A DNA stretch of 49,477 nt, from IMG/VR virus record IMGVR_UViG_2703718798_000005, one strand, 5' to 3'. The notes beneath the pieces were generated by a model. That model was not told where the DNA came from. It worked only from the letters and a program-made list of their open reading frames with translations, and did no database searches. Below are positions 3,346 through 41,640 of the stretch, in pieces (position 1 is the first letter of the stretch; the number at the start of each line of letters is the position of its first letter). The stretch is from a virus (taxonomy: Duplodnaviria > Heunggongvirae > Uroviricota > Caudoviricetes). A program made the translations under genes and the position numbers.

Positions 3346-3439
3346 TTGACGCTTAAAATGGCTTTAAAAAGGCTTAAAACGCTTTTCTCCAGATTGTCTT
3401 TAAAGGAGTGTACCACAGCACAAAATTTGCACCACTCCC

Positions 3440-3994
3440 TTACGCGCTGGTCTTTTTATAGGTTACATTGAAGTGATCAACCTTAGTCTTACAAAACTCG
3501 CAAATCTCTCTAATCTGTTCATCAGATAAATCATTTAAGCTTAAGGCTAGTGCTCTACGTTGACCGTGTAAGCTATGTAATTCCTGAATATCATTATCTA
3601 AAAGTATGGTTAAAAAATCTGCGCCTTTGCGGCCTAATTTCCTAGATAATTCATCAAGTTCTGTTGGTTCTAGAGAGCTCCATATAGCGCTAATCGTCTG
3701 GTAATCTCGTTCATCTGAAGACGCAATTGTCGGCCGAGTACTTTCTTGTGGCTGTATTGTTTTCGTGCCCAATATGAGCCATTCCAACGATACGTTTTCT
3801 ACCTTGCAAATATTGCTAACTACTTTTAGGCCAGGTGTGGTCCCTTTCTCAAAGTAGTTATTCAATGTTGAGTATGACAACCCCCAATCGATAGCTGCTT
3901 GCCGCATACTTCTGCTGCCGATTAGCTGCCTGATCCTGTCCTGGATACTTTCTTTTCCCTCTTCGACAAAAGAAAAATCTTGTTCCTGTCTCAT
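3440..3994 (-). CDS. Prophage repressor (Mu c-like), putative
   Basis: 184 aa leftward ORF at the left end, divergent from ner; HTH-like segment (LSYSTLNNYFEKG); positional equivalence to the Mu repressor. Confidence 0.55.
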   Translation of the reverse strand: MRQEQDFSFVEEGKESIQDRIRQLIGSRSMRQAAIDWGLSYSTLNNYFEKGTTPGLKVVSNICKVENVSLEWLILGTKTIQPQESTRPTIASSDERDYQTISAIWSSLEPTELDELSRKLGRKGADFLTILLDNDIQELHSLHGQRRALALSLNDLSDEQIREICEFCKTKVDHFNVTYKKTSA

Positions 3995-4170
3995 GTTTTT
4001 TTCTTTTCCTTATATCGTATTGAATTAAAAAGAGTTTTCTACTTATAGATTACAGTGACAATAAAATAGAAAAGAAAGCTTGAAATTTTCTTTTCGTAGG
4101 CCAATAATCTACTAAACTTGATAACAAAATTTAGTTATCAAATTTCGTAACTTTTTAGGATAGATGAATC
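3995..4170. promoter_or_regulatory. Divergent repressor/early promoter-operator region
   Basis: AT-rich 176 bp between divergent repressor and ner genes; palindrome TTGATAAC-N8-GTTATCAA at about 4118-4141. Confidence 0.4.
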
Positions 4171-4401
4171 ATGGCGAGAAATGAAGTTAAGCCTGATTGG
4201 CATCCTCAAAGAATCTTGGGGGAAGTCAGAGCCAGAGAAGGAAGTATGAGGGCGCTGGCCCGTAAAGCTGGTGTAGGCCAGAACAACCTGTATAACGCGG
4301 TATACCGCCATGTTCCCAAGTATGAGGGAATTATTGCGGAATGCCTGGGTGTTCCACCCGAGGAGATTTGGCCCAGCCGCTACATTCGTAAGGTCGCGTA
4401 A
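4171..4401 (+). CDS. ner: Ner-like DNA-binding early regulator
   Basis: 76 aa; DWHPQRI ... IWPSRY pattern recalled from Mu Ner-family proteins; first gene of the rightward early operon. Confidence 0.75.
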   Translation: MARNEVKPDWHPQRILGEVRAREGSMRALARKAGVGQNNLYNAVYRHVPKYEGIIAECLGVPPEEIWPSRYIRKVA

Positions 4402-4403
4402 TT

Positions 4404-6491
4404 ATGTTTGCTTCAGTTAAAGAGCTGGTTGGATTACCGGGAATGCCGGGAACGGAGCAAGGCGTCCGCTATTCAATCAGGAAGTATGCAACCAGCGAAA
4501 CCAGCAGACGCCGCCAGGAAGGCACTAAAGGTTTTGAATACAGCATCGACTGTTTACCTGAAGTGACGCAGCAGGCATTACGTGAACGCTACGCCCTGCA
4601 ACTGATGACGCAAAAAGCCGACGAATCACCGGCTCCGGTGGTGACAAAGGCCAGACGCTCGCCTGCAGTGGTTGATGCGGTGGAGGCATATCGCGGATCA
4701 CCACAACTGATGGTCGAACGCCTTAATGCCCTGACTGAAAACCAGCGCCAGGTGGCTGATGCACGAATCGCGATCGTCAGCGAAGTGATGAAAGTCGCGC
4801 AACAACCCGGTTTCAGCTGCGCGAAGGCTATCCGGTTTATCGTTGACAACCTGGCACGTTCGCAACTGGACGAGCGCATTGTGGCAATGGTTGAGACGGC
4901 GAACGCCAAAAAGGGAAACAGCCGCGCGTTGAGTGAAATCACGCTGAAACGCTGGATTGCAGCCTTTAACAAGGCGCAGAACGCCGCCGAACGCCTGCTT
5001 TTGCTGGCACCGGGTAAGCGCCAGGAAATAAAAGCCGAAGATATTAACTGGCTGCCCGAGTTTCTGGCGCAGTATCGCCAGTCAAACGGTCGACCAATGA
5101 CCGAGGCTTACGAGGATTTTGTCGCTGAATGGCAGCACCGGCACGCTGATGAGCCTTATATGCTCGATATCATGCCCTCTTATGACACCATTCGCCGCGC
5201 AATGAAGAAACTGCCGGAAGTGGTGAAACAGAAAGGCCGGGTGACCGGCAGTGAATACCGTCAGCTTGAGGGATTCACGCGCCGCGACTGGTCCAGAATG
5301 CCGGTGAATTATGTCTGGATTGGTGACGGTCACGGCATGAAGCTGAAATGCGCGCACCCGGTTCACGGGCGGCCATTTGCACCGGAAGTAACCTTTGTTA
5401 TCGATGGCGGCACGCGCTTTGTGGTGGGCTGGAGCCTTGACCTGGCTGAAAATGTTTTCGCCGTAGCGGGTGCCATACAGCACGGCATTCGCCATCACGG
5501 CAAACCGTTTCTGTATTACTCGGATAACGGTTCCGGGGAAACCGCCGACATCCTGGATAAAGAAGTTGTGGGGATCCTGCCGCGACTGGGGATTAATCAC
5601 CCAACCGGGATTGCCGGTAATCCGCAGGGGCGAGGCATTATCGAACGGCTTAACCGCACATTACCGATGCGCATAGCCCGTAAATACCGCACCTATTTCG
5701 GGAAAGGTGCAGATCGCGAGACGTTACGCAAAACCAACCGCGATTTACGCTCGGCATTCACTGCCCTGCAACAGGACAAACGGCTGAACGCCCGGCAGCA
5801 GTCAGCGATGCGTGATTTACCGTCCTGGTCTGAACTGATTGATGCCATTCGTGATGGTGTTGAGTGGTACAACAACCGGCCGCACGATGAATTACCCATG
5901 AAGCCGAACGGTAAACATTACAGCCCGGCGGAGTTCAGAAAAAAACGCCTGGCGGAAGAGGACACGGAAATTGAATGGCTGTCCGATGTTGAGCTGCGGG
6001 ATATGTTCCGGCCGATGGTGAAGCGCCCTGTAAGACGCTGTGAAATACGCTGGCTGAATAATATTTACTACGCGCCGGAGCTGCGTGACGAGCATGGCCG
6101 CAAGGTGCTTATCAGCTATGACATTCATGATGCTGAGCGAATTACCGTACGCAGACTGGATGGCAGCGTGATTTGCGAGGCGGTATGGGACGGCAATAAA
6201 CGCGAAGCCTTCCCGGTCAGCGCGGAATACTACAAACAGCAGCAACGCCTTAAAGGCATGCGTAAACGCGCAGAGGAAAAAATCCGTGATGCCGAGGATG
6301 AGGTGGTCAACGTGCTGGAGCACAAACCGCAGGAGCCCTGGCTGGAAAACATCTATCGCCCGGTAGGTAATACGGTGGCCGTTCAGCAACCTGCCGTTGA
6401 TGATGAACCTGATGAAGAATACGAGCGTAATTTCCAGCGGGGATTGCAGCTGCTGGAAGCGAAATTAAAAGAAAATGACCCGCTGGCCTGA
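4404..6491 (+). CDS. Mu-type DDE transposase (MuA-like)
   Basis: 695 aa; candidate DDE triad in WIGDGHGMK, YYSDNGSGE and RGIIERLNRT contexts; follows ner as in Mu. Confidence 0.9.
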   Translation: MFASVKELVGLPGMPGTEQGVRYSIRKYATSETSRRRQEGTKGFEYSIDCLPEVTQQALRERYALQLMTQKADESPAPVVTKARRSPAVVDAVEAYRGSPQLMVERLNALTENQRQVADARIAIVSEVMKVAQQPGFSCAKAIRFIVDNLARSQLDERIVAMVETANAKKGNSRALSEITLKRWIAAFNKAQNAAERLLLLAPGKRQEIKAEDINWLPEFLAQYRQSNGRPMTEAYEDFVAEWQHRHADEPYMLDIMPSYDTIRRAMKKLPEVVKQKGRVTGSEYRQLEGFTRRDWSRMPVNYVWIGDGHGMKLKCAHPVHGRPFAPEVTFVIDGGTRFVVGWSLDLAENVFAVAGAIQHGIRHHGKPFLYYSDNGSGETADILDKEVVGILPRLGINHPTGIAGNPQGRGIIERLNRTLPMRIARKYRTYFGKGADRETLRKTNRDLRSAFTALQQDKRLNARQQSAMRDLPSWSELIDAIRDGVEWYNNRPHDELPMKPNGKHYSPAEFRKKRLAEEDTEIEWLSDVELRDMFRPMVKRPVRRCEIRWLNNIYYAPELRDEHGRKVLISYDIHDAERITVRRLDGSVICEAVWDGNKREAFPVSAEYYKQQQRLKGMRKRAEEKIRDAEDEVVNVLEHKPQEPWLENIYRPVGNTVAVQQPAVDDEPDEEYERNFQRGLQLLEAKLKENDPLA

Positions 6492-7735: not shown

Positions 7736-8155
7736 ATGAATACGCAGATACAGCAGGAAATCAATGTTCTCCACAGTTTTCGTGCGTTTAACAACAATGA
7801 CTGTGAGGTTCGTGATTATATCTTTGAATTGATGAACGGTGACGGTGTGTGTTTTCTGTTTATCGACCTGTATCTATGGTATGCAGACCAGCAGTGTGAA
7901 TCTGTCCGGCAGCGTTTTTATGTTGGATACTTTAACCATCATGTCTGGGAAAGCCTGCGCTTTGGTTTTCTGATCCAGGGGGATTATCGCCAGGGGGGGC
8001 GACACGGTTACTCCATCCTTCGGGCAATCATGCGTGGCGAAACCCGAAAAATTCCGGGGATGGGTGAGGTTGATCGGAGCCTCCTGCTGGAACTGGCTGC
8101 ATCGCGCATGAATCCATTACTGATACAACCGGAGTTCACCTATGAATTTGTTTGA
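7736..8155 (+). CDS. Hypothetical early protein
   Basis: 139 aa ORF with RBS (GAGG) 7 nt upstream; no recognisable motif. Confidence 0.4.
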   Translation: MNTQIQQEINVLHSFRAFNNNDCEVRDYIFELMNGDGVCFLFIDLYLWYADQQCESVRQRFYVGYFNHHVWESLRFGFLIQGDYRQGGRHGYSILRAIMRGETRKIPGMGEVDRSLLLELAASRMNPLLIQPEFTYEFV

Positions 8156-8372
8156 TTCACTGAATAACGCCCGTCGCCTGACCGAGCTTGCCGGTGCGGT
8201 ACTGGAGCGCAGTAAACGCTACCCGCAACGCTTTGCACTGAAAACCACGCCGCCGGTAAATAAGGTTCAGGGGGGGGGAAAGGAAATTGAAATCACCGTT
8301 AAGACCAACGGCCTGCGCCGCCGTGTGAAGGCCACCCGCATCAGCGGTTGCACGGTTTACTGGGAAGTATGA
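8142..8372 (+). CDS. Hypothetical early protein
   Basis: 76 aa basic ORF overlapping the preceding stop. Confidence 0.35.
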   Translation: MNLFDSLNNARRLTELAGAVLERSKRYPQRFALKTTPPVNKVQGGGKEIEITVKTNGLRRRVKATRISGCTVYWEV

Positions 8373-8446
8373 AGTTACTTCATGGTTCGGCTCTGTCATC
8401 AGGTCAGGCGCCGGGTCAGTTATCCGAACAAAACGAGGACCAGAGG

Positions 8447-11808: not shown

Positions 11809-12116
11809 TAACGACATTATTTGTTGAATCAGACGAGCCTCTGGTATGTGCCGCCGGAATGTCGGTTTGTGGCGGAACGCTGACCGGTGTTTATTTCGGG
11901 GATTTGCGCGGTTATCCCTGGCATTCACTGGATGACGCATTTCCGCCTGATATGGAGGCTGTCGTGCTGATTGTTCAGTATGGTGACCAACAGGAACTGC
12001 GCATCGGCCATATGGGGTATGAAGGCTTTTTTATTGATGAAGAAACCGGAGCCTGCCTTGAAGATGAGGACGGACAGGTGACGCACTGGTGCCATATTTC
12101 AGCTTTACCGGAATGA
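11805..12116 (+). CDS. Hypothetical protein
   Basis: 103 aa acidic ORF, overlapping start. Confidence 0.4.
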   Translation: MITTLFVESDEPLVCAAGMSVCGGTLTGVYFGDLRGYPWHSLDDAFPPDMEAVVLIVQYGDQQELRIGHMGYEGFFIDEETGACLEDEDGQVTHWCHISALPE

Positions 12117-12481
12117 CGGGAGGTGAATGCGTGAGAAGTTATATTGATAATGAAAAACTGAAGACAATCAGCGACTGTCTTAGCTTGCTGGCAAAAATAA
12201 AAGAAACCATTGAAGAGATTAAATTTCAGCTTGAATACGAACCCTGTGGCGATGATACATGGCGTAACTCTGCCAGAAAAGCACTGGCTGTCTTTCAGAA
12301 ACAACGCCGGACTGTTGAATACCGCCTTGCTGTATTGCGCCAGGAGGAAAAGGAAAGAAATATAAGACGTCATGAACTCGTTAATGATTTTCTTGTTCGT
12401 GAATTAAAGGAGCGTGTGCCGGAGTCGGTATTTTTTGAGTGTGAGGCTGTTGCCCGTAGCAAAGCACTGGAAACTGATTAA
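12113..12481 (+). CDS. Hypothetical coiled-coil protein (start uncertain)
   Basis: ORF track starts at 12089; internal ATG at 12113 or GTG at about 12131 follows GGGAGG. Confidence 0.4.
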   Translation: MTGGECVRSYIDNEKLKTISDCLSLLAKIKETIEEIKFQLEYEPCGDDTWRNSARKALAVFQKQRRTVEYRLAVLRQEEKERNIRRHELVNDFLVRELKERVPESVFFECEAVARSKALETD

Positions 12482-12493
12482 ACAGGCAGGTGA

Positions 12494-13880: not shown

Positions 13881-14306
13881 ATGGCAGAAACTCAGATGAG
13901 CATGTTTGGTGGTGACAGTGAGCAACTGCACGCCCTTATCGACCGCCTTGATGACATCCCTGATGATGTTCTCAAAAAGAACTGGCCGCGGACCCTGTCA
14001 GAACTGGTTGAAGTCACCGGCGCAGAACTTCAGCGTCAGGGGATTGAGCCGGTACTGGCCGGTAAACTGGCACGCAAGGTGGCTGCGGCTCAGGCAGCCT
14101 ATATGGGCGGACGGGGTTATTACCTGCCGGTCGGGGAATCTCTCTTTGCCGAGCTGCGAAACAATGAGATATTTTCGCGCTGGGACCGGGGCGAGAAAAT
14201 TGAATCCCTTCGCCGCCATTACCGGATGTCAGAAACCCAGATTTATACCGTCATACGTGAACAGCGCCGTCTGCATCTGGCAAGAACGCAACCGCCACTT
14301 TTCTGA
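13881..14306 (+). CDS. Mor/C-family transcriptional activator (middle/late gene activator)
   Basis: 141 aa; C-terminal HTH-like LRRHYRMSETQIYTVIREQRR; lies between the early terminator and the lysis genes as in Mu. Confidence 0.6.
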   Translation: MAETQMSMFGGDSEQLHALIDRLDDIPDDVLKKNWPRTLSELVEVTGAELQRQGIEPVLAGKLARKVAAAQAAYMGGRGYYLPVGESLFAELRNNEIFSRWDRGEKIESLRRHYRMSETQIYTVIREQRRLHLARTQPPLF

Positions 14307-14377
14307 TATTCCGCAAAGCCTGCCGCCTTTCCTTCACCGTTACGCTGACTCAGAGAACATCATGAGACAGCGTAACA

Positions 14378-16941: not shown

Positions 16942-18605
16942 TGAATAACGCCGAAGAACTCTCCCCCTTACTGACGAATACCGTCTCCACCCGCAAAATT
17001 GATCTGGCCGGTGAAAAAGCCCTGCTGGGCGTGGATGTGCCGGACAGCCTTGATTTGCCCGGTGATATGCCGGTATTTCTGGATTATCAGGCCCGCTGGT
17101 TTGAGGATGAAAGCGAGGTCTGCATCGCGGAAAAATCCCGCCGCACCGGGCTTACCTGGGCGGAAGCCGGGCGTAACGTCATTACCGCCGCAAAGCCTAA
17201 GCGGCGTGGTGGCCGCAATGTGTTTTATGTGGGGTCAAAGCAGGAGATGGCGCTGGAATATATTTCTGCCTGCGCACTGTTCTCCCGTGCCTTTAACCAG
17301 CTGGCAGATGCTGATGTGTATGAGCAGACCTTCTGGGATCGGGATAAAAAAGAAGAAATTCTGACCTACATGATCCGCTTTCCGAACAGTGGATTCAAAA
17401 TTCAGGCACTGTCTTCCCGTCCGTCAAACCTGCGCGGCCTTCAGGGGGATGTGGTGATTGATGAAGCCGCGTTCCACGAGTCACTGGATGAGCTTCTCAA
17501 GGCGGCAATGGCGCTCACCATGTGGGGCGCGCGCGTGCGTATTATCTCCACGCATAACGGCGTCGATAATCTGTTTAATCAGTACATTCAGGAAGCCCGC
17601 GAGGGGCGCAAGGATTACAGCGTCCACCGCATTACCCTGGATGATGCCATTGCGGACGGGCTGTACCGTCGTATCTGTTATGTCACCGGCCGCGAATGGT
17701 CACCGGAAAGCGAGCAGAAGTGGCGTGATGATCTCTACAAAAACGCCCCGACCCGTGAGGATGCCGACGAGGAATACGGCTGTATCCCGAAAAAATCCGG
17801 CGGTGCCTATATTCCTCACGCGCTTATTGAAATGGCGATGCTCCGCGACATCCCGATTCTGACGTTTGAAGCCCCGGACGACTTCATCAGCCGTGCCGCA
17901 TGGCTGCGTGAATCGGAGGTTTTAACCTGGTGTGAAGAACATTTAAAACCGCTTTTAGAGGCGTTAAATCCCCGTTCCCGCTTCAGCTTCGGGGAAGACT
18001 TTGCCCGCACCGGTGACCTCTCCTGCTTTGTGCTGCTGGAAATCACTGAATCCCTGGCAAAACGCGAGGTGTTTCGCGTGGAGCTGCGCAACCTGCCGTA
18101 TGCCCAGCAGGAGCAGGTGATGATGTACATCCTGACCCGCGTTCCGGCGCTGGTCGGTGCGGCGTTCGACGCCACCGGTAACGGCGGCTATCTGGCCGAA
18201 GCCGCGCTGCTGGCCTTTGGCCCGGACATCATCGACTGCGTGATGTTATCGCCGAAGTGGTACGGCGAGTGGATGCCAAAACTGAAGGCCGAGTTTGAGG
18301 ATCAGAATATCCTCGTCGCCCGCCATCAGACCACGCTTGATGATTTGCGCCATGTGAAGGTGGTGAACGGTATCCCGCAAATTGACAAGGGGCGTACGAA
18401 GGACCAGAACGCAACGGCTGTGAACGCCCGCCGCCATGGCGATTTTGCCGTGGCGCTCTGTATGGCAAACCGGGCGTCATACATGGAGGGCTTCATCCTG
18501 GATGAATCAGCCTGTCAGGCGCTGCCGGAGCGGTCGCGGGCCATGGAGGGCGGTTATCGTGATGACGATGAGGCATATCATGAATTTGATCGGGGGTGCT
18601 GGTAG
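16941..18605 (+). CDS. Terminase large subunit
   Basis: 554 aa; position and size; acidic ATPase-like motif (VVIDEAAF). Confidence 0.8.
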   Translation: MNNAEELSPLLTNTVSTRKIDLAGEKALLGVDVPDSLDLPGDMPVFLDYQARWFEDESEVCIAEKSRRTGLTWAEAGRNVITAAKPKRRGGRNVFYVGSKQEMALEYISACALFSRAFNQLADADVYEQTFWDRDKKEEILTYMIRFPNSGFKIQALSSRPSNLRGLQGDVVIDEAAFHESLDELLKAAMALTMWGARVRIISTHNGVDNLFNQYIQEAREGRKDYSVHRITLDDAIADGLYRRICYVTGREWSPESEQKWRDDLYKNAPTREDADEEYGCIPKKSGGAYIPHALIEMAMLRDIPILTFEAPDDFISRAAWLRESEVLTWCEEHLKPLLEALNPRSRFSFGEDFARTGDLSCFVLLEITESLAKREVFRVELRNLPYAQQEQVMMYILTRVPALVGAAFDATGNGGYLAEAALLAFGPDIIDCVMLSPKWYGEWMPKLKAEFEDQNILVARHQTTLDDLRHVKVVNGIPQIDKGRTKDQNATAVNARRHGDFAVALCMANRASYMEGFILDESACQALPERSRAMEGGYRDDDEAYHEFDRGCW

Positions 18606-21509: not shown

Positions 21510-21630
21510 CGGTCAGTGGCGGGGGTCGAACCCGCATACATGATCCACCCGGAGGCAGGCACCGACTTTACCAGTTAAGCGTACACTGACCGCCTGTTTA
21601 TTTTATATTCATCCTTTATGCGGAGGCAAT

Positions 21631-22104
21631 ATGTCATCCATTGATGCCGCTGTCGTTGTTGACGTTACGCGTCTCCAGCGGGTCTTTGCCCGGCTTCAGT
21701 TTGTGGGTGGCGGGAAAGGCCTGGCCCGCAGTGTGGCGTCCAGCCTTCTGTCATCGTCAGAAATGGCGTTTGAACAGGAAAAAGAGCCGGACGGCGAACG
21801 CTGGCATGACTGGTCAGATCCTTACCGCAAGTGGCGTACCCGTAAGGGATACATGCCCGGCAAAATCCTGACACTGAACGGCGATCTGGCCCGACGCCTG
21901 ACCACGGATTATGGCGACACCTGGGCGCTGATTGGATCAAATGAGCCTTATGCGGCCATTCATCAGTGGGGTGGCCTGCCCGGTATGCCGCCGGGACCGG
22001 CGGCCATTGGTGCACGTCCGTATATGGGCTTTGATCAGGTGGCAGAGCAGGAGATCATGGACGAAATCAGAAAACGCTTTAAAAAGGCCACAGAAACGCC
22101 TTAA
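21631..22104 (+). CDS. Mu G-like virion morphogenesis protein
   Basis: 157 aa; position between F and I. Confidence 0.65.
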   Translation: MSSIDAAVVVDVTRLQRVFARLQFVGGGKGLARSVASSLLSSSEMAFEQEKEPDGERWHDWSDPYRKWRTRKGYMPGKILTLNGDLARRLTTDYGDTWALIGSNEPYAAIHQWGGLPGMPPGPAAIGARPYMGFDQVAEQEIMDEIRKRFKKATETP

Positions 22105-22280
22105 TTGTTTAAGGTATGCAAATGCATTACCTTACCCCCTTCAGGCGCGTGTCGTGATTTTCTAACCTGAATTTAACGGGCTTTAAAATCTGCGTGAAGC
22201 GCCTTTGTATTTTTCCCCTGAAAGCACTTCCTGAAATCCCGCAAAACCCGCCCTGAAAATTCCCGGCCTATGCTGCCGGA
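22105..22280. promoter_or_regulatory. Central G-I intergenic region: candidate late promoter and possible gyrase-site-like element
   Basis: 176 bp non-coding gap in an otherwise tightly packed late region; CCTGAA(A) at about 22166, 22217, 22230, 22252; imperfect palindrome AAGGTATGCAAATGCATTACCTT at about 22110. Confidence 0.35.
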
Positions 22281-23405
22281 ATGAAGACGAAAAACACGCC
22301 CAAACTTGCTTATGCCATTCTGAATGCCATCAGCCTGTCCGCAGACGGGGACGGTGACTGGTGTCAGATCATGCCAGCCGGTCGGGTAAAGGCCCGTGAC
22401 GGTCGCCCGGAAAAACCGGCCGAGGGCTGGCTGATCAACCATGCAGCCGTTGAGCGCATGGTCTCCCGTGTTGTGGCGCTCAATCAGCCGGTGAAAATTG
22501 ACTACAACCACCAGACCCTGATTGAGGGACATCCGGCACCGGCTGCCGGTTTTGTGATGGCCTCACCGGAGAATTTTCGCTTCAGTGAAGAGCGAGGTTT
22601 CGAGGTGCGCCCGAAGTGGAACCCTCCGGCCCTTGAACATCTGCGTAATAACGAATTCCCCTGGTTTTCACCGGTGATTGGCTATGACGAGAGCACCGGC
22701 GAACCTGTCGAACTTCGGATGCTGGCTATTACCGGTGACCCCGGTCTGACCGGCATGAATCCTGTCGCCGCACTGTCGGCGGATGACCTTTATAACGCCT
22801 TAAACCCTCCTTTAAAGGATACCTCCATGAATGAGCAATTACGCCAGTTGCTGACGGCGCTCGGTCTGACCGTGGCTGACGGTGACGAATTTACGCCGGA
22901 GCTGGGCACGGCAGCGCTGTCTGCCCTCACCGGGATCAAAACCCGTGCGGATGCACACGACAACCTGAAAACACAGGTCGCCAGTCTGTCGGCAGAGCTG
23001 GAAACTGCAAAAGGCACACCGGCTGGCGGCAGTATTGACCTGACGAAATACGTGCCCGTTGAAACGTATAACGCCCTGCGTACCGAATACGTTGCGCTGT
23101 CGGCGCAGCACGGCAGCACCACGCTGGAGCAGTTGCTGGACAAGGCCGAGTCCGAAGGACGCATCTTCAAAAGTGAACGCGGCTATCTGGAACAACTGGG
23201 CGGGCAGATTGGCGTGGCGGCACTCTCTGCACAGCTTGACGCCCGCCAGCCGGTTGCGGCCCTGACCGGCCTTCAGACCGACACCGTGACCGTGCCGGAT
23301 AAAAAGACTGCCACCGCTGTGCTGTCGGCTGAAGATATCGCGGCCGCCAAACTGCTGGGTAAAACCGAAGCCGAGTTCCTGAAAATGAAAGAGGAAATGC
23401 AATAA
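22281..23405 (+). CDS. Mu I-like head protease/scaffold protein
   Basis: 374 aa; position upstream of the major head gene; Ala/Leu-rich scaffold-like C-terminal half. Confidence 0.7.
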   Translation: MKTKNTPKLAYAILNAISLSADGDGDWCQIMPAGRVKARDGRPEKPAEGWLINHAAVERMVSRVVALNQPVKIDYNHQTLIEGHPAPAAGFVMASPENFRFSEERGFEVRPKWNPPALEHLRNNEFPWFSPVIGYDESTGEPVELRMLAITGDPGLTGMNPVAALSADDLYNALNPPLKDTSMNEQLRQLLTALGLTVADGDEFTPELGTAALSALTGIKTRADAHDNLKTQVASLSAELETAKGTPAGGSIDLTKYVPVETYNALRTEYVALSAQHGSTTLEQLLDKAESEGRIFKSERGYLEQLGGQIGVAALSAQLDARQPVAALTGLQTDTVTVPDKKTATAVLSAEDIAAAKLLGKTEAEFLKMKEEMQ

Positions 23406-28380: not shown

Positions 28381-28506
28381 AGAAGCGGCAATTATCCTGG
28401 GGATGGTGACAAAAAGCGGTCCGGAATGGGCGCTTAACCTCCCCCTGTCGCAACTTTACCGGCACTGCCGACAGACAGAAAAAATCATCAGAACGAAGCA
28501 GTAAGT

Positions 28507-30582
28507 ATGGCCCGAAATCTCAGAGCATCTCTGATAGTTGATTTGCTCGGCAATATCTCAGCCAAATCCCGCCAGTGGTCACAGGAGCTGGGGGCATTCT
28601 CACGCTCCGGCCAGGCGGGGCTGGGTGGCCTGGGAAATGCTGCCCGCCGTGCCGGGCAGGAAACAGATGTACTCGGAAGCAGGATGCAGCGCACGCTGGC
28701 CGGGGTGCGGGGCAGTATCCGCCATGTCACTTCTGATTTTGACCGTCTTCAGGGCAGTATTACCGGCACCATCGGGCGGATCAGCAATCTTTACGGAATG
28801 CTGGCCGGTGGTGCTGCTGTATATGGCTTTAACCGGGGATTTATTCGCCCGGCAGCGGAGATGGAAACCTATATGATTCGCCTGAACTCCCTTTACAAAG
28901 GGGATCGGGCGAAAACTGATGATGTCCGCAGGTGGGCAATACAGAATGCGAAGGAAACCACCTGGGGGCTGGCTGGCGTCATGCAGGAATATACGTCCAG
29001 TCTGGGCTTTGGTATGAGTGACAGGGAGGCCCGAAATTTTGTCACCATGCTTCAGGATCAGGGTGCCGTGGGCGGCTGGTCACTGTCCGATGCACAGGGG
29101 GCATCCCTGCAACTGAAACAGATGTATGCAAGAGGCAGTATTCAGGCAGCGGATGCAAATATTCTTGCCACCTACGGCATTAATGCCTACCGCGTGCTGG
29201 CTGATCGTCTGGGTGTGGACCAGAAAGTGGTCAGAAAACTTGGTGAAAAAGGGCTGCTTGGGCCGGACAGTATTCGCCTGTTATTTCAGACGCTGGCGGA
29301 ACAGGCCAGGGGAGCACAAAAGGACGCAATGAATTCCTGGAGTGGCCTGACGGCCATGATGGGTGACGTCTGGGATCAGTTTGCCCGGGATGTGATGGAC
29401 AGTGGGCCATTTGAAAAACTGAAGGGTAATCTCAGGGGATTTCTTTCATGGGTTGACAGTGCCAAATCTGATGGCAGTTACCATTCCCTGGCGGAAAGTA
29501 CGGCATCAGCCATGAACCAGGGCTTTGAGTATGCCCGTGATGCAGTGACAGGGTTTTATCAGGCGATCAGAAAGGTACGCGACACGCTTCAGGCTCTGCG
29601 GGATGCGGGCTATGGTGATGCGCTGGATCGCATTGGTCAGGGGGCACAGACCGCCGCGAAATACCTGCTGTACATGTATCTCGCCACCCGTGCCCTGAAA
29701 ATGGCGCGGGCTGTCGGAACGGGGATTATACGTCCGGGTGCTGCATTGCTGGGATACGGATTATCAGCGGCGGCCTTCCTTACCTCACCTTTCCGGCGCT
29801 CTCCTCCGGCCGGAACACCACCAGGCACATCTCAGGGACGAGGGCAACGTTTTATAAACTTTCTTACCGGGGTAAATCCGGCAGCCGTTCAGCCAGTACT
29901 TGTAACAAACTGGCCCACAGGAGGACTGTCCGGCACCGGCGCGACCGATACATCCTCAGGCGGACGTCAGGGGCGGGGCCGCAGGAAACGCGGACCGGGG
30001 CGCGGAAGACCGGTCACGCCTCCCCTGCCACCGTCCCCAGTGCCACCGTCTCCCTCTTCTGGTGGGGCAGGGTTCTGGGGGCGCATGATGGGGCGCGCCG
30101 GTGGGTTACTTTCGTCTGTCGGTAGCCGCATGGGGCTGGGGCGTTTCTCCGGCTTTTTCCGCAGTGCCGGTGGACTGGCCGGCCGGCTGGGTGGAGGTGC
30201 CCTGTGGGCTGGCGCGATGGCAGCCCCGGTTCTGCTGGATGGCAGCGCCAGTGCCACAGACAAGGGAGAAGCGGTCGGCTCTCTTGCAGGCAGTATTGCC
30301 GGTGGTGCGCTGGGGGCGGCAGCCGGACCTGTGGGGATTGCCATTGGTTCTACGGTGGGCAGCTATCTCGGTAACTATCTGGGGGGATGGCTGACTGAAG
30401 CCTGGCAGAAATTACGGGGCAGTGATGATGAAAGCAGTGGACAGGCGGTACAAAAAGCCTCTGCCCGTGTGGAGCTGGTTGCCCCGGAAGGGTGGCAGGC
30501 TCGCAGTATTGATATTGATGACACGTCCGGTCACGGACTGGATGTGAATGTCTGGAACGGAGGGAATTATGGCCTCTGGTGA
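28507..30582 (+). CDS. Tail tape measure protein
   Basis: 691 aa; Gly/Ala-rich C-terminal region; follows the chaperone. Confidence 0.8.
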   Translation: MARNLRASLIVDLLGNISAKSRQWSQELGAFSRSGQAGLGGLGNAARRAGQETDVLGSRMQRTLAGVRGSIRHVTSDFDRLQGSITGTIGRISNLYGMLAGGAAVYGFNRGFIRPAAEMETYMIRLNSLYKGDRAKTDDVRRWAIQNAKETTWGLAGVMQEYTSSLGFGMSDREARNFVTMLQDQGAVGGWSLSDAQGASLQLKQMYARGSIQAADANILATYGINAYRVLADRLGVDQKVVRKLGEKGLLGPDSIRLLFQTLAEQARGAQKDAMNSWSGLTAMMGDVWDQFARDVMDSGPFEKLKGNLRGFLSWVDSAKSDGSYHSLAESTASAMNQGFEYARDAVTGFYQAIRKVRDTLQALRDAGYGDALDRIGQGAQTAAKYLLYMYLATRALKMARAVGTGIIRPGAALLGYGLSAAAFLTSPFRRSPPAGTPPGTSQGRGQRFINFLTGVNPAAVQPVLVTNWPTGGLSGTGATDTSSGGRQGRGRRKRGPGRGRPVTPPLPPSPVPPSPSSGGAGFWGRMMGRAGGLLSSVGSRMGLGRFSGFFRSAGGLAGRLGGGALWAGAMAAPVLLDGSASATDKGEAVGSLAGSIAGGALGAAAGPVGIAIGSTVGSYLGNYLGGWLTEAWQKLRGSDDESSGQAVQKASARVELVAPEGWQARSIDIDDTSGHGLDVNVWNGGNYGLW

Positions 30583-31914
30583 CGGTCGTGGTGCGTTCCG
30601 TGGTGTGCCGTTCCTCGTCTGGCGTGAGCAGCGCGAACGTGGTGGGCGAAACATTGTCCGTCGGGAATATCCGTTACGGGAAACCGGTGGGGCAGACGAT
30701 CTGGGACCTAAACTGACTGAATTTACGTTCAGTGTACTTGTGATGGGGGATGATGTTCAGACACAGCGAAATCGTCTGCGTGATGCCCTTCGTGCTCCCG
30801 GTGCCGGGGAGCTGCTTCACCCGGATTACGGCACGTTAAATGTGCTGATAAACAGCTTTGAAAGTCGTTATAACGCCGCTGAACAGGGCGTGGTTGAGTT
30901 CACCATTAATGTCACGCCGGTAAGTGATGATACCGCACCTGCTGTCACACAGGACACGGCCGCCATTCTGGAGCAGAAGAGTACCACCGCGCTCGGGCAG
31001 GTTTTTGAAACCCTGGAAGCGGGCTGGACGGTGATCTCTGACGGAATGCACGATGTCCAGGCAATGACCGAAACCATCAGTGATAAGGTGTCCGCCCTGG
31101 AAAATGCCGTTTCCGGCATGGGGATTGTACAGGATATCAGTGCCTTTACTGCCACGTTCACGGCGCTGAAAGGGAATGCCACGGCATTACTGACAGCACC
31201 TTCCCGCATGGCCTCATCTTTTGCGGGGCTTTTCAGTGCCCTGATCACCCTGCCATCGCTGCCGTCACTGTCTTCAGGAGGCCTGAATACCCGGCCGGCA
31301 GTATCGGCCGGACGACATCCGCCGTCTCTCAGGGAATGCCGCAACTGTACAGGACATTATCTTCCCTGCGTTACGTGCTGGATGAGCAGGATAATCCGCA
31401 GACTCTCATCGGTCTGACACCGGCAGCACAAAAGAATATTCGTCTGATACGGGCGGTAATGCAGAGTGCTGCCGTGGTGGCCCAGGCACAGACCGTGGGA
31501 AAACTGCTGGATCAGGTTCTCAGTCAGGAAACCCTGCCGGACAGTGACGCAGCCCACCGTACCTGGCCTGTCTGGCTGGAAAGTTCAGTTGATCTTCAGC
31601 GCATTAACCGTGACTTAAGCGAAGCGCTCGAACGGCAGGTGATGACACTGTCCGGGCAGGGGTATACCGCCACGGCGCTGACGCTTCGTGATGCCAGACT
31701 GGCACTGACAGAGGATCTGAATACACGGGGAGTTCAGCTACCCGGTGCAACAGTAGTGACTGTACGTACCACCGAGCCTGCACTGGTGACCCTGTACCGT
31801 GCCACCGGGAACAGTACCGGCTGGCAACGTTTTGTGCGCCGTAACGGTATTGTTGATCCGCTGTTCATTCCCGGAGGCCATTCAGTGGAGGTGATTAGTG
31901 AGCAGCAGGGTTGA
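30569..31914 (+). pseudogene. DNA circularization protein (Mu N/gp43-like), apparently frameshifted
   Basis: N-terminal part in frame 2 (30569-31417), C-terminal part in frame 1 (open from about 31084, ATG at 31336, to 31914); the frame-2 tail is Cys-rich and implausible while frame 1 reads like protein. Confidence 0.55.
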
Positions 31915-35689: not shown

Positions 35690-36600
35690 TGTTCCATGTT
35701 GATAATAATTCCGGCGTGGCGAATATGCCTGAACTGGCTCCGGCGCAGAGTAATACCACCACCTGGTTTACCGAAGGTGACGGACAAAAAGGTATCAGCT
35801 GGATTGGTCAGGACTGGCTGAATATTCTCCAGGCCGAACTGCTGAATATTCTGGCTGAAGCCAGTATTCAGCCGGATAAGGCGCAGTTAAACCAGCTTAC
35901 GCTGTCCATTAAAGCCATTATCGCTGCGAATGCCTTTTCCCGGAAAAACAACCTGAAAGAAATTGCTGATGCCGGTGCGGAAGCCCAGCGTCTGGCCCGT
36001 GGTTATCTTGGTCTGGGGACGCTTGCCACAAAAAACAGTCTTGGTCCCGCTGACGTTAATGCCCTGGCGAAGGATCAGAACCTTGCCGACCTGGAGAATG
36101 CGGAAACCGCCCGTAATAATCTGGATGTTTACAGCAGGAGCGAAGGTGATAACCGTTACCTGCGCAGGGACCAGAATGGCGCGGATATCCAGGACAAAGG
36201 AACCTTTATCGATAACCTCGGTTTACGGGAAACGGTAAATAAGGCTGCTGATGCCCTGCCATCGGCTGGAACCGCCGTGGCAGCAAACAGACTCGCCACC
36301 CCAAGAAATATTAATGGTGTTCCTTTTGACGGAACGCTGGATATCAACATCACGTCAGGAATGACGCAGTCAACCGCAGATGGCCGGTATGTACAGAATG
36401 TTCAGCTTGGAGCACAGAGCTATCATTCACCCGGAGGCAATGAAATGTCATGGAATTACAGCGCACCTTCCGGTTGTATGCTTTCCGGTATTAACGTGCA
36501 GGAAACCGGCTCCCGGTCTGCGGACAATATCGGTGGGGTCTATTATCGCCCGGTTCAGATTTATATTAATAATACCTGGAGAACGGTAAGTTCAGTGTAA
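35689..36600 (+). CDS. Tail fibre protein S (constant part plus currently fused variable tip)
   Basis: Start at ATG 35689 overlapping the preceding stop; crosses the left recombination site at about 36206-36231; last roughly 120 aa lie inside the invertible segment. Confidence 0.8.
   Translation: MFHVDNNSGVANMPELAPAQSNTTTWFTEGDGQKGISWIGQDWLNILQAELLNILAEASIQPDKAQLNQLTLSIKAIIAANAFSRKNNLKEIADAGAEAQRLARGYLGLGTLATKNSLGPADVNALAKDQNLADLENAETARNNLDVYSRSEGDNRYLRRDQNGADIQDKGTFIDNLGLRETVNKAADALPSAGTAVAANRLATPRNINGVPFDGTLDINITSGMTQSTADGRYVQNVQLGAQSYHSPGGNEMSWNYSAPSGCMLSGINVQETGSRSADNIGGVYYRPVQIYINNTWRTVSSV
36206..36231. repeat. Left recombination site (gix-like) inside the tail fibre gene
   Basis: TTATCGATAACCTCGGTTTACGGGAA, close to the Mu gix sequence as recalled. 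Confidence 0.7.
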
Positions 36601-36634: not shown

Positions 36635-37156
36635 TTATTCCGGTTTTTCCGGCCAGGGAATCGCCTGGTAATGCCCCTCACTGGCAATATCATTAAAGTG
36701 CATTTCTTTAAGCTGTCGGATATACGCCATCCAGCGCGTCAGCTGTAATTTATTTTCATCGCTAATCATGTCCAGTTTTAATTCTGTTTTCCAGTCATCC
36801 ACGGTTTCGTTGGCTTCCTGGAGCAGCGATGAGCGACGCTTTTCAGCAACCGTCTTCCAGTTTACCGGCACCTTTGATATCAGGCCATCAGAAAACTGCC
36901 AGTTACCGTCAATATTCACACCTTCCGGCAGTTCGTCCACTTCAACAACAGTAAAACCTGCCGGATATAAAGCAGAGACATCTTCAGCAACAGAGCAGAT
37001 AATACCCGTTACAGGCGAAATACAGAGTTTGTATTTCTTTGTAAAAAGCGGGATAGATTCATAAAAATCCCTTCCGTCCTCACTCTGGAAATACTGAACA
37101 TCCTCACCATAGGGTTTGTCTTTCGGGTAATATCGTTTGACATTAATCAGTTGCAT
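36635..37156 (-). CDS. Tail fibre assembly protein (Tfa/U-like)
   Basis: Start moved to internal Met (MQLINVKRYY); C-terminal ...QAIPWPEKPE typical of Tfa chaperones; inside the invertible segment. Confidence 0.75.
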   Translation of the reverse strand: MQLINVKRYYPKDKPYGEDVQYFQSEDGRDFYESIPLFTKKYKLCISPVTGIICSVAEDVSALYPAGFTVVEVDELPEGVNIDGNWQFSDGLISKVPVNWKTVAEKRRSSLLQEANETVDDWKTELKLDMISDENKLQLTRWMAYIRQLKEMHFNDIASEGHYQAIPWPEKPE

Positions 37157-37277
37157 AAACATCACCATGTAAATCAATGATAAAAACAGGAATAATACTA
37201 TCGCCATATACAGGCAATGCTTGTCTGAAATAACGCATATTTCAGATGCTGGCTGCTGTGTGCTATGCCCCCGTTAA

Positions 37278-37649
37278 TTAAATACTTGCAGCGGATACCC
37301 AATGCCCATTAATACAATATTGTATCTGTCTGTAATAAACACGGTCATCACCACCACGCATTTCCCAGTCTCCGTCAGTCTTAAAACCGGTAATCACATT
37401 TCCTGATGACAGGGAGTAATTATATTCCAGTCCGCCGCTTAATGCCTGCGCTCCCAGTCTTACCCCTGTAACATAACGCTGATTGGCCGTTGATTCCGGC
37501 ATTCCTGACGTAATGTTTATATCCTGCGTGCCGTCAAAGGCGACACCATTGATTCTGCGGGCATTTGCCAGCCTGCTTGCTGCAACAGCCGTACCGTTTG
37601 ATGGCAGGGCATTCGCGGCCCTGTTTACCGTATCCCGTAAACCGAGGTT
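37278..37649 (-). CDS. Alternative tail-fibre C-terminal segment (promoterless until inversion)
   Basis: Minus-strand frame reads NLGLRDTVNRAANALPSNGTAVAASRLA..., parallel to NLGLRETVNKAADALPSAGTAVAANRLA... of the expressed tip; a stop lies immediately outside the right recombination site. Confidence 0.7.
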   Translation of the reverse strand, partial: NLGLRDTVNRAANALPSNGTAVAASRLANARRINGVAFDGTQDINITSGMPESTANQRYVTGVRLGAQALSGGLEYNYSLSSGNVITGFKTDGDWEMRGGDDRVYYRQIQYCINGHWVSAASI

Positions 37650-41569: not shown

Positions 41570-41640
41570 TCGAATCGATCGTTTTTGTCGATCGATTGCA
41601 TGAGAAAGGCATCAACAACAAAGCAGGAGGTTATGCGGCC
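41570..41640 (+). promoter_or_regulatory. com-mom promoter-proximal region with paired GATC sites
   Basis: GATC at about 41577 and 41590 within ATCGAATCGATCGTTTTTGTCGATCGATTG; RBS AGGAGG before com. Confidence 0.4.

What the first reader, a model, noticed from the sequence alone, without database searches (positions are those of the whole stretch)
22105..22280. Central G-I intergenic region with iterated CCTGAA(A) motif: late promoter and possible strong gyrase site analogue
This is the only sizeable non-coding gap in the late region and lies near the physical centre of the prophage. In Mu the G-I interval holds a C-activated late promoter and, as I recall, the centrally located strong gyrase site. 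The sequence carries CCTGAA(A) four times (about 22166, 22217, 22230, 22252) and an imperfect 23-bp palindrome at about 22110.
Basis: partly seen in the sequence, partly recalled or inferred. Interest (0 to 1): 0.4.

Follow-up and report, generated by a model that had tools for sequence, protein, structure and literature searches.

The report
Mu-like prophage gyrase site and late promoter
This 176-base gap at the centre of a Mu-like prophage of pathogenic E. coli holds the phage's known central gyrase site, a probable terminator and a late promoter; the repeated CCTGAA word is an accident of this particular copy.

Summary
CCTGAA occurs at 22166, 22217, 22230 and 22252 (+) and at 22140 (-), and an imperfect 25-bp palindrome lies at 22110-22134. 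The repeat is not conserved: among 15 distinct versions of this spacer only the window has four copies, Sakai has two and six have none.

The window is an Sp18-type Mu-like prophage (3168-42659). Its G-I spacer differs at two bases from Sp18 of E. coli O157 Sakai. A review reports that the Sakai strong gyrase site was the only foreign site able to replace Mu's.

The spacer is colinear with Mu's. It holds a core that aligns with Mu's cut site (predicted stagger 22120-22123, at the palindrome's centre, 48.0% along the prophage). It also holds T-run/A-run elements spaced 10-11 bp apart and kept at fixed distances in Mu-like phages, a hairpin plus U-tract, and a late promoter. The promoter has a box at 22228-22252 and a -10 TATGCT at 22269-22274. 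The same box-to--10 spacing recurs at the lys and P promoter positions.

One possibly new point: the -10 lies 6 nt before the I start codon and there is no Shine-Dalgarno sequence, which predicts a leaderless I mRNA.

The parts
21631..22104 (+). Gene G (virion morphogenesis / neck protein); its 3' end lies under the left arm of the gyrase site
   Evidence: Pfam PF05069, E 1.9e-33; 54% identical to Mu G
22057..22186 (.). 130-bp span a gyrase complex would cover if it cleaves at 22120-22123 (motif positions -63 to +66)
   Evidence: Rebuilt Topo-Seq weight matrix: best site in the spacer, score 5.9, z 2.4
22110..22134 (.). Imperfect 25-bp palindrome, proposed core (G segment) of the gyrase site; GGTATGC-AAAT-GCAT aligns with Mu GGCATAA-AATC-AGCC
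22120..22123 (.). Predicted 4-bp gyrase cleavage stagger (AAAT); cuts between 22119/22120 on the top strand and 22123/22124 on the bottom strand; centre coincides with the palindrome centre (22121.5)
   Evidence: Matrix maximum in the spacer; same offset from the G stop as in Mu and 13 other lineages
22154..22191 (.). Right arm: three T-run/A-run elements spaced 10-11 bp apart (GATTTTCTAAC, GAATTTAAC, CTTTAAAATC), with T-to-A junctions at 22164, 22175 and 22185 (+44, +55, +65 from the predicted cut)
   Evidence: Conserved block in all Mu-like groups; only 4 of 66 positions vary among 15 Sp18-type variants
22143..22214 (+). Long RNA hairpin (AGGCGC 22143-48 pairs with GCGCCU 22199-204) followed by UUGUAUUUUU; probable intrinsic terminator of the lys-to-G late transcript; overlaps the right arm
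   Evidence: RNAfold -32 kcal/mol, z -2.5; analogous hairpin in Mu, annotated there as a terminator; similar hairpin plus U-run in L005, L047, L007 and L085
22228..22252 (+). Late-promoter activator box TTCCTGAAATCCCGCAAAACCCGCC, covering -53 to -29 (and so the -52 to -34 region required in Mu Plys) if the start is at 22281; contains CCTGAA copy 3
   Evidence: Same box at the lys promoter position (14300-14324); CCGCAAANCCNGCC occurs exactly at only these two places in 49 kb
22263..22279 (.). Inverted repeat CCGGC / GCCGG bracketing the -10 hexamer
   Evidence: Read from the sequence; the same arrangement with other arm sequences in L005, L040, L047 and L052
22269..22274 (+). -10 hexamer TATGCT of late promoter PI; no -35 hexamer (ACCCGC at the expected place)
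   Evidence: Invariant in 15 variants; relatives have TAAGCT, TACGAT or CACACT at the same offset from the box; no complete sigma-70 promoter found by scan
22280..22281 (+). Predicted transcription start, on or one base before the A of the I start codon (leaderless mRNA)
   Evidence: Inferred from the 6-7 nt between the -10 and ATG in four diverged groups and weak anti-Shine-Dalgarno pairing
22281..23405 (+). Gene I (head protease / scaffold)
   Evidence: Pfam PF10123, E 1.4e-76
22166..22171 (+). CCTGAA copy 1: private substitution of this window (all relatives read CCTGTA; Mu reads CCGGTA); lies inside the right arm
22217..22222 (+). CCTGAA copy 2: present in 6 of 15 variants (Sakai reads CCTGGA)
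22252..22257 (+). CCTGAA copy 4: starts on the last base of the box and runs into the variable stretch before the -10; present in 9 of 15 variants
13881..14306 (+). C-like late activator (Mor/C family), presumed to bind the box
   Evidence: Pfam PF08765; 39% identical to Mu C
14298..14346 (+). Companion late promoter at the lys position: box CTTTTCTGATATTCCGCAAAGCCTGCC, 16 nt, -10 TACGCT
   Evidence: box and -10 conserved while the 16-nt stretch between them varies in sequence but not length
31525..31560 (+). Candidate late promoter at the P position inside gene N: CAGGAAACCCTGCC, 16 nt, CACCGT
   Evidence: Pattern match; the box falls at the codons that align with the Mu PP box in the N protein alignment

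Best explanation
The G-I spacer of this Sp18-type Mu-like prophage is a compact composite of three elements, the same three that Mu has there.

(1) A central strong gyrase site. Its core is the palindrome at 22110-22134, with a predicted 4-bp stagger at 22120-22123. Its right arm carries T-run/A-run bending elements spaced 10-11 bp apart (junctions 22164, 22175, 22185). By analogy with Mu, the arm wraps a GyrA C-terminal domain so that gyrase supercoils processively, extrudes the prophage as a loop and brings the two ends together for transposase.

(2) A hairpin plus U-tract (22143-22214) overlapping the right arm, which probably ends the lys-to-G late transcript.

(3) Late promoter PI. It has an activator box at 22228-22252 for the phage's C-like protein, a -10 TATGCT at 22269-22274 and no -35. 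Its start falls on or next to the A of the I start codon, so I would be translated from a leaderless mRNA.

The fourfold CCTGAA is incidental. One copy overlaps the promoter box, two arise from substitutions absent from most relatives, and the motif is lost in many working-looking relatives.

Shown here: the anatomy, the homology and the conservation. Taken from the literature: gyrase function of the near-identical Sakai site. Inferred: the exact cut position, termination, dependence on C and the leaderless start.
For: Identity of the element. The window matches Sakai Sp18 at 94-98% over the whole prophage. The two spacers are both 176 bp and differ at 22170 and 22221 only.

Literature. The Sakai prophage site was the one foreign site that promoted Mu replication (PMC10052514). 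Strong gyrase sites of this kind are stated to occur only in Mu-like prophages (PMC3820752). The right arm is essential, the left arm is dispensable, and the sequence carries phased bending signals.

Mu reference. The annotated record shows the cut site, a terminator and PI between G and I.

Colinearity. MAFFT aligns Mu GGCATAAAATCAGCC with window GGTATGCAAATGCATTACC, and Mu GATTTTTAAACCGGTATTTAACGG with window GATTTTCTAACCTGAATTTAACGG.

Architecture. In 14 of 16 diverged lineages the best gyrase-matrix position in the first 70 nt after the G stop lies 9-18 nt past that stop. T-to-A junctions follow at about +22, +43, +54 and +65 from it. The window keeps +44, +55 and +65.

Matrix control. The rebuilt matrix correlates at r 0.77 with published scores on held-out sites and ranks the Mu site 2nd of 36,588 positions.

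Position. The predicted cut is at 48.0% of the prophage, against 48.7% in Mu.

Selection. Among 15 Sp18-type variants the right arm varies at 6% of positions, against 22% in the core, 52% in the T-tract and 38% in the stretch between box and -10.

Promoter. CCGCAAANCCNGCC occurs exactly at only 14311 and 22239, each 30 nt upstream of TAYGCT. The looser pattern gives 4 hits against 0.01 expected, including the P-promoter position. Box and -10 are conserved at the lys promoter while the 16-nt stretch between them varies. Citrobacter-type, L047 and L052 relatives keep the 30-nt spacing and place a -10-like hexamer 6-7 nt before ATG. The box occupies -52 to -34, the region required for C activation of Mu Plys (PMC2582627). 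Anti-Shine-Dalgarno pairing is weak (-1.7 to -2.9 kcal/mol) against -3.2 to -6.3 in eight Mu-type enterobacterial leaders.
Against: The gyrase matrix does not single out this site. It scores 5.9 (z 2.4) and ranks 253 of 39,497 positions in the prophage, and each of its three parts is only mildly positive.

The window lacks the first phased element (+22) that nearly all other lineages have. The core varies among close relatives, and the palindrome's inner arms are not kept.

Oram and Pato 2004 could not be read. The cleavage position in Sp18 and the exact fragment they tested therefore rest on a review's one-sentence summary.

The terminator scanner found nothing, because the loop is long. No hairpin plus U-run is predicted in the Kluyvera type.

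The promoter box is not the Mu C box (CATAACCCC), and its dyad symmetry is weak (5-7 of 10 pairs). By sequence homology to Mu PI, CCCGCAAA is the Mu -10 region, which would place the start near 22254 and give a 27-nt leader. The Citrobacter-type relative L040 has stronger anti-Shine-Dalgarno pairing (-6.0) than the other window-type leaders. No 5'-end data exist.
Confidence: 0.8

Rival explanations
1. The late promoter uses the Mu-homologous register. CCCGCAAAAC (22238-22247) would be the -10 region (Mu CAAACT, L007 CAAAAT), or else GAAAAT at 22255-22260 (L054 has CCTGAAAATGG as its -10). The I mRNA would then have a 14-27 nt leader containing the CCGGC/GCCGG hairpin, as Mu-type leaders carry a hairpin before ATG.
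For: CCCGCAAA lies 42-43 nt before ATG in both Mu and the window. Mu-type relatives have (C/G/T)AAA(A/C)T here, 20 nt after CATAACCCC, and a hairpin in the leader. An inverted repeat precedes ATG in the window type too.
Against: CAAAAC, CAAACC, TAAACC and CAGACC in the window-type groups all lack the nearly invariant T at -7. GAAAAT is absent at that place in L005, L047 and L052 and is altered in close variants (22254, 22255 and 22260 vary). At this prophage's own lys promoter the same CCGCAAA box lies 30 nt upstream of TACGCT. That hexamer is homologous to the Mu Plys -10 and is followed by the shared TCAGAGAA. No CATAACCCC box lies upstream.
Confidence: 0.17
2. The conserved T-run/A-run block (22154-22191) is conserved mainly for another reason, such as the terminator hairpin or binding of a nucleoid protein (IHF, Fis or HU), and gyrase is secondary.
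For: The block lies inside a predicted hairpin followed by a U-tract. IHF, Fis and HU contribute to the Mu prophage domain (PMC3820752). The matrix score of the right arm is only z 1.4.
Against: The elements are direct repeats, not inverted ones, and their spacing (about 21, 11 and 10 bp) and distance from the core are kept even where the hairpin differs or is absent. Published deletion work assigns the essential function of the Mu site to this right arm. The Sakai site substituted for Mu's.
Confidence: 0.1
3. The iterated CCTGAA(A) is itself a repeated binding site for a regulator, or a structural repeat.
For: Four non-overlapping copies in 176 bp is unusual in shuffles (P about 0.003). Copies 2-4 lie within 40 bp, upstream of gene I.
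Against: Only this copy of the spacer has four. Six of 15 near-identical variants have none on the + strand. Copy 1 is private to the window and copy 2 is absent from Sakai. The hexamer is 2.6-fold over-represented throughout the window. The spacings (51, 13 and 22 bp) are irregular. No such repeat occurs at the lys or P promoter positions.
Confidence: 0.04

Closest known systems
Strong gyrase site of prophage Sp18, E. coli O157:H7 Sakai (Oram and Pato 2004, J Bacteriol 186:4575; cited through PMC10052514)
   Same: Same prophage type, same G-I spacer, same length (176 bp), identical except at two bases (22170 and 22221), both outside the predicted cleavage core.
   Different: The A at 22170 falls inside the second phased element of the right arm (CCTGTATTTAA becomes CCTGAATTTAA). 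Its effect is untested. This prophage also carries a different immunity region and a 4-bp deletion in N.
Bacteriophage Mu strong gyrase site (G-I spacer; cut annotated at 17879/17880)
   Same: Central position (48.0% against 48.7% of genome length). It starts about 16-17 nt after the G stop. The core GGYATNN-4 nt aligns. Phased elements lie at about +43 and +54 from the cut. It overlaps a hairpin plus U-tract and is followed by PI.
   Different: Overall sequence identity is low outside two short blocks. The window lacks the +22 element and has an extra one at +65. The gyrase-matrix score is 5.9 against 10.0.
Mu C-dependent late promoters (Plys, PI, PP, Pmom)
   Same: A -10 without a -35. A conserved element covers about -52 to -34 and is shared by several late promoters of one genome. 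The genomic positions match (after C, before I, inside N). A Mor/C-family activator is encoded upstream.
   Different: The box sequence differs (CTGAwATyCCGCAAArCC, not CATAACCCC) and the C proteins are only 39% identical. PI here lies 6 nt from ATG instead of leaving a leader of about 26 nt with a Shine-Dalgarno sequence. No Pmom-like copy was found.
Leaderless phage mRNAs such as lambda cI from PRM (established knowledge)
   Same: The predicted start falls on the A of the start codon and there is no usable Shine-Dalgarno sequence.
   Different: Here the gene is a late structural one (head protease / scaffold) under an activator-dependent promoter, and the start is not mapped.

Membership tests
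Mu-type strong gyrase site (SGS) | Located at the centre of a transposable Mu-like genome, in the G-I spacer | tested here: met
   Prophage 3168-42659; predicted cut at 22120, which is 48.0% of the length; flanked by G and I homologues
Mu-type strong gyrase site (SGS) | Core and right arm homologous to and colinear with the Mu site, with phased bending elements in the right arm | tested here: met
   Alignment; T-to-A junctions at +44, +55 and +65 from the predicted cut, against +21, +42 and +54 in Mu and about +22, +43 and +54 in most relatives. The first element is missing in the window.
Mu-type strong gyrase site (SGS) | Outstanding match to the gyrase cleavage motif (top-scoring site of its genome, as published for Mu, pSC101 and pBR322) | tested here: not met
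   Rebuilt Topo-Seq matrix: score 5.9, rank 253 of 39,497, although it is the best site in the spacer. The Mu control ranks 2nd of 36,588. The matrix is an approximation built from 360 sites.
Mu-type strong gyrase site (SGS) | Single strong quinolone-induced gyrase cleavage, and ability to support Mu replication | not testable with these tools
   Reported for the near-identical Sakai site only through a review. The primary paper is not held.
Mu C-dependent late promoter | A -10 hexamer present and no recognisable -35 | tested here: met
   TATGCT at 22269-74; ACCCGC at the -35 position; the scan finds no complete sigma-70 promoter
Mu C-dependent late promoter | Conserved element at about -52 to -34, shared by the late promoters of the same phage | tested here: met
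   Box at the lys, I and P positions with identical spacing to the -10; footprint pattern in relatives
Mu C-dependent late promoter | Mu C-box sequence (imperfect dyad ending in CATAACCCC) | tested here: not met
   The box is CTGAAATCCCGCAAAACC. The Mu-type box is present in L007, L051 and L054 but not here. This points to a different specificity, not to a different mechanism.
Mu C-dependent late promoter | Transcription depends on the C protein and starts about 7 nt after the -10 | not testable with these tools
   No transcript data are available
Intrinsic terminator | G+C-rich hairpin immediately followed by a U-tract | tested here: inconclusive
   RNAfold hairpin 22143-22204 followed by UUGUAUUUUU, z -2.5. 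The consensus scanner finds none because the loop exceeds its limit. An analogous feature is annotated in Mu.
Leaderless mRNA | Transcription start on the start codon and no Shine-Dalgarno sequence | tested here: inconclusive
   The -10 lies 6-7 nt before ATG in four diverged groups. Anti-Shine-Dalgarno pairing is -2.6 kcal/mol. The start is not mapped.

The most novel reading that the evidence does not exclude
In the Sp18 family and three related enterobacterial lineages of Mu-like phages, late promoter PI has been rebuilt. A different activator box (CTGAwATyCCGCAAArCC, matching a C protein only 39% identical to Mu C) drives a -10 placed 6-7 nt before the I start codon. The head protease/scaffold would then be made from a leaderless mRNA, and read-through transcripts from the lys operon, which lack a Shine-Dalgarno sequence and carry a CCGG hairpin at the start codon, would translate I poorly. 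The terminator and the gyrase right arm share the same DNA.
Probability: 0.5. Interest if true: 0.4.

Novelty: already known. Interest (0 to 1): 0.25.

Why it matters
The central gyrase site explains how a 39-kb transposable prophage pairs its distant ends, and it is the strongest natural gyrase site studied. Recognising it here adds little, because the near-identical Sakai site has already been tested.

Two things are useful. First, the comparison shows one fixed architecture across Mu-like phages down to 41% G-protein identity: a core, then T-run/A-run junctions at about +22, +43, +54 and +65. The Sp18 type works without the +22 element, which helps define what a right arm needs. Second, the predicted leaderless PI and its distinct activator box give a simple, testable case of how a late promoter and its activator specificity co-evolve in the Mor/C family.

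Tried and rejected
1. Matching to the published 133-bp gyrase consensus by identity or by G+C/A+T pattern failed the positive control, since the Mu site was not among the top hits in Mu. I dropped it.

2. The published gyrase matrix (Sutormin 2019, Table DS10) is cut off in the held supplement. I rebuilt a matrix from 462 listed cleavage coordinates (360 after clustering) and 192 kb of W3110 sequence. The register was verified (G at position 0, C at +3). The result for the window is only mildly positive.

3. Oram and Pato 2004 and Oram et al. 2006 are not held.

4. The consensus promoter and terminator scan found nothing in 21900-22500. Rfam found nothing at E up to 1.

5. CCTGAA as a functional repeat is rejected on conservation.

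6. RNA or DNA hairpin function for the palindrome at 22110-22134: variants break pairs without compensation (22118 G to A opposite an unchanged C at 22125), so there is no support.

7. A clear dyad in the promoter box: only 5-7 of 10 pairs, so the half-sites are not defined.

8. A mom promoter copy of the box upstream of com (41560-41643): none seen.

9. A literature search for a leaderless I mRNA in Mu-like phages found nothing relevant.

Full report
WHAT IS THERE. The window carries a Mu-like prophage. It encodes a CI-type repressor (3440-3994, minus strand), transposase A (4404-6491), a Mor/C-family activator (13881-14306), portal H, F, G (21631-22104), I (22281-23405) and T (Pfam). BLASTN against E. 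coli O157:H7 Sakai shows it is an Sp18-type prophage, 94-98% identical along its length, with three short replaced segments. Its ends are TGTAACCAGG... at 3168 and ...GCGCTAT at 42659, flanked by a 5-bp duplication ATGGG. The finding's region is the 176-bp G-I spacer, at 47.9-48.4% of the 39,492-bp prophage.

THE OBSERVATION. CCTGAA is at 22166, 22217, 22230 and 22252 (+) and at 22140 (-). The palindrome is TAAGGTA-TGCA-AA-TGCA-T-TACCTTA at 22110-22134. The hexamer is 2.6-fold over-represented in the whole window (68 against 26). Four non-overlapping copies of any hexamer arise in 0.26% of dinucleotide-preserving shuffles of the spacer, and three copies in 14%. So the fourfold repeat is statistically unusual in this sequence.

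It is not conserved, however. I collected 15 distinct Sp18-type spacers from 26 loci: the window, Sakai, a Mu-like element inside Stx phages, and IMG/VR contigs. Copy 1 is private to the window; all the others read CCTGTA and Mu reads CCGGTA. Copy 2 reads CCTGGA in Sakai and CCTGTC in many others. Copy 3 reads TCTGAA in 9 of the 15. Copy 4 is lost in 6. The number of + strand copies per variant is 4 (window only), 3 (four variants), 2 (three), 1 (one) and 0 (six). The window differs from Sakai's spacer at exactly two bases, 22170 and 22221, and each of those creates a CCTGAA.

THE MU REFERENCE. The curated Mu record AF083977 annotates four features between G (ends 17859) and I (starts 18056). 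They are a gyrase cut site at 17879/17880, a predicted terminator at 17908-17953 and late promoter PI at 17977-18043. Reviews state several relevant points. The site is central and is needed for synapsis of the prophage ends. Its right arm is essential while its left arm is dispensable. The right arm carries phased bending signals. Among many sites tested, only the one from the Sakai Mu-like prophage could replace it (PMC10052514; PMC3820752; PMC13284261). The primary papers are not in the held library.

THE GYRASE SITE: HOMOLOGY. MAFFT aligns the window with Mu colinearly. GGTATGCAAATGCATTACC pairs with GGCATA-AAATCAGCCGCAC, and GTGATTTTCTAACCTGAATTTAACGG pairs with GGGATTTTTAAACCGGTATTTAACGG, at the same distance from the G stop. 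G-I spacers from relatives, with G-protein identity to the window falling from about 73% (Citrobacter type) to 41%, all carry the same block after the G stop. They come from Citrobacter, Edwardsiella, Erwinia, Kluyvera and many IMG/VR contigs. The block reads TTTAAAACGC, 7-9 nt, GATTTTTAAAC, 3 nt, TTTTAAACGG.

THE GYRASE SITE: MATRIX. To place the cut independently I rebuilt a gyrase weight matrix. I took 462 Topo-Seq cleavage coordinates from the supplement of Sutormin et al. 2019 and four stretches of W3110 sequence. The register was confirmed: G in 70-83% of sites at position 0 and C in 70-85% at +3. I clustered the sites to 360, symmetrised them and masked positions 0-3 as the authors did.

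The matrix correlates at r 0.76-0.78 with the published scores on held-out sites. It ranks the Mu site (position 0 at 17876, whose bottom-strand cut is the annotated 17879/17880) 2nd of 36,588 positions in Mu. In the window the best position in the spacer is 22120 (GGTATGC^AAAT^GCATTAC). This is the position homologous to Mu's GGCATAA^AATC^AGCC, and its centre (22121.5) is the centre of the palindrome.

Across 16 lineages the best position within 70 nt of the G stop is 9-18 nt past that stop in 14 of them. The T-to-A junctions of the phased elements then lie at +21 to +23, +41 to +44, +52 to +55 and +64 to +65 from it. The window has +44, +55 and +65 (22164, 22175, 22185) and lacks the +22 element.

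Against this, the window's score is modest: 5.9, z 2.4, rank 253 of 39,497 in the prophage. The left arm, core and right arm score z 1.9, 1.2 and 1.4. The enterobacterial relatives score between 6.7 and 12.6, most of them 8.3 or higher. The matrix therefore locates the site but does not single it out.

THE GYRASE SITE: SELECTION. Among the 15 Sp18-type variants the right arm (22139-22204) varies at 4 of 66 positions. The core varies at 8 of 37, the T-tract and box-upstream stretch at 12 of 23, and the stretch between box and -10 at 6 of 16.

THE TERMINATOR. RNAfold predicts a long hairpin in which AGGCGC at 22143-48 pairs with GCGCCU at 22199-204. It encloses the phased elements and is followed by UUGUAUUUUU (-32 kcal/mol, z -2.5). 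Mu folds in the same way (ACGGGAU...AUCCCGU followed by UUUAUCUU), and that feature is annotated as a terminator. A hairpin followed by a U-run also sits between the right arm and PI in L005, L047, L007 and L085, but not clearly in the Kluyvera type. The simple scanner reports none because its loop limit is 8 nt. I regard termination of the lys-to-G transcript here as likely but unproven.

THE LATE PROMOTER: SHARED BOX. The motif CCGCAAANCCNGCC occurs exactly at only two places in 49 kb. One is 14311, between the C-like gene and lys, which is the Plys position. The other is 22239, before I. Each lies exactly 30 nt, start to start, upstream of TAYGCT: TACGCT at 14341 and TATGCT at 22269. The shared box extends to TTyCTGAwATyCCGCAAArCCyGCC.

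The window's TACGCT GAC TCAGAGAA aligns with Mu's Plys -10 and downstream sequence, TAGACT GCCA TCAGAGAA. In Sp18-type phages whose C protein is only 83-84% identical, the lys-position box and TACGCT are conserved. The 16 nt between them change in sequence but not in length.

A looser pattern, GNAAANCCYGCC-N16-YANNNT, has 4 hits against 0.01 expected. The pattern was derived from the first three hits, so only the fourth is an independent surprise. The third hit, at 31527, lies inside N. Its box encodes S-Q-E-T-L-P-D, which aligns in the N protein with Mu's A-I-T-P-D, the codons that carry the Mu PP box CCATAACCCC.

THE LATE PROMOTER: RELATIVES AND GEOMETRY. Three further lineages keep the PI arrangement: box, 30 nt, then a hexamer with A at position 2 and T at position 6, then 6-7 nt, then the ATG of I. 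The Citrobacter type has TAAGCT or TACGAT, and L047 and L052/53 have CACACT. The sequence between box and hexamer is unrelated among them.

With the start at 22280/22281 the box covers -52 to -34. That is the region shown to be required for C activation at Mu Plys (PMC2582627). The weak dyad is centred near -44/-45, against -43.5 in Mu. There is no -35 (ACCCGC), as expected for an activator-dependent promoter. The box is not the Mu C box. Other lineages (L007, L051, L054, Kluyvera) have the Mu-type PI: CATAACCCC, 20 nt, (C/G/T)AAA(A/C)T, and a leader of about 30 nt with a hairpin and GAGCAGG. The two C proteins are 39% identical, so a changed specificity is plausible.

THE LEADERLESS PREDICTION. 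In all four window-type lineages the A of the ATG is the 7th or 8th base after the -10. The N-terminal residues (MKTK...) are shared with Kluyvera-type I proteins, so this ATG is the real start. Pairing with the anti-Shine-Dalgarno sequence is -1.7 to -2.9 kcal/mol in eight of nine window-type sequences. It is -3.2 to -6.3 in eight Mu-type enterobacterial leaders.

The rival register treats CCCGCAAAAC as the -10, by homology with Mu's CCCGCAAACT at the same distance from ATG. It has in its favour the sequence homology and the CCGGC/GCCGG inverted repeat, which would then sit in a leader. Against it, the hexamer lacks T at -7 in every window-type lineage, and the same box demonstrably sits upstream of a separate -10 at the lys promoter. 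I put the leaderless model at about 0.55-0.6 and the promoter's presence at about 0.85.

ROLE OF CCTGAA. Copy 3 (22230) overlaps the left part of the promoter box, of which only CTGAA is invariant. Copy 1 sits in the right arm and is a private T-to-A change. The minus-strand copy (22140-45) is part of the invariant hairpin stem. Copy 2 and most of copy 4 lie in variable sequence; only the first base of copy 4 is in the box. There is no evidence for a repeated site.

VERDICT. The main finding is not novel. The distinct late-promoter box, the predicted leaderless I mRNA and the fixed site architecture across Mu-like phages are modest, testable additions.

Noticed in passing
window 31289-31300 (gene N, 30569-31914): A 4-bp deletion relative to Sakai ECs_4983 (CCCGGCC----GGCAG) splits the DNA-circularisation / baseplate-hub gene N into ORFs 30548-31417 and 31336-31914. 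This copy of the prophage is probably defective for tail assembly.
   Followed up: partly
window 36951-36984 (+), inside the invertible tail-fibre segment (inverted repeats 36214-36392 / 37471-37649): A fourth, unexpected match to the late-promoter pattern GNAAANCCYGCC-N16-YANNNT (4 found, 0.01 expected). It lacks the CTGAwAT left part and lies antisense to the ORF 36635-37207. It could be chance or an orientation-dependent promoter.
   Followed up: no
window 22263-22279; L005, L040, L047 and L052 at the equivalent place: An inverted repeat (CCGGC...GCCGG here; GACCGCC...GGCGGTC in L040) brackets the -10-like hexamer just before the I start codon in all window-type lineages, with different arm sequences. 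Its function is unknown. In read-through RNA it would form a hairpin abutting the start codon.
   Followed up: partly
window 3340-4520, 7746-8381, 11811-12482: Three segments, including the repressor / early-operator region, do not match Sakai Sp18 although the rest is 94-98% identical. This suggests mosaic exchange and probably a different immunity type.
   Followed up: no
window 41560-41645, upstream of com (ATG 41643) and mom (41795-42532): A cluster of GATC sites (cgATCGATCgtttttgtcGATCGATtgc) lies upstream of the com/mom homologues, as in the Dam/OxyR-controlled Mu mom promoter. No copy of the Sp18-type late-promoter box was seen there.
   Followed up: no
window 21510-21630 and 28381-28506: Two other non-coding gaps in the late region (121 bp between F and G, where the Mu genes overlap, and 126 bp before the tape-measure gene). 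Neither was examined.
   Followed up: no
L003 (Mu) 18024-18055; L009, L054 and L080 leaders: Mu-type I leaders carry a conserved hairpin that ends in or next to the Shine-Dalgarno region (Mu CTGCTCA...TGAGCAG; Kluyvera GGCCTG...CAGGCC just before ATG). This may be 5'-end stabilisation or translational control of I.
   Followed up: no
L005, L040-L046 (Citrobacter-type) about 15 nt after the G stop: These relatives score higher on the rebuilt gyrase matrix (12.2-12.6) than Mu itself (10.0) and have all four phased elements. They would be good candidates for very strong gyrase sites.
   Followed up: no
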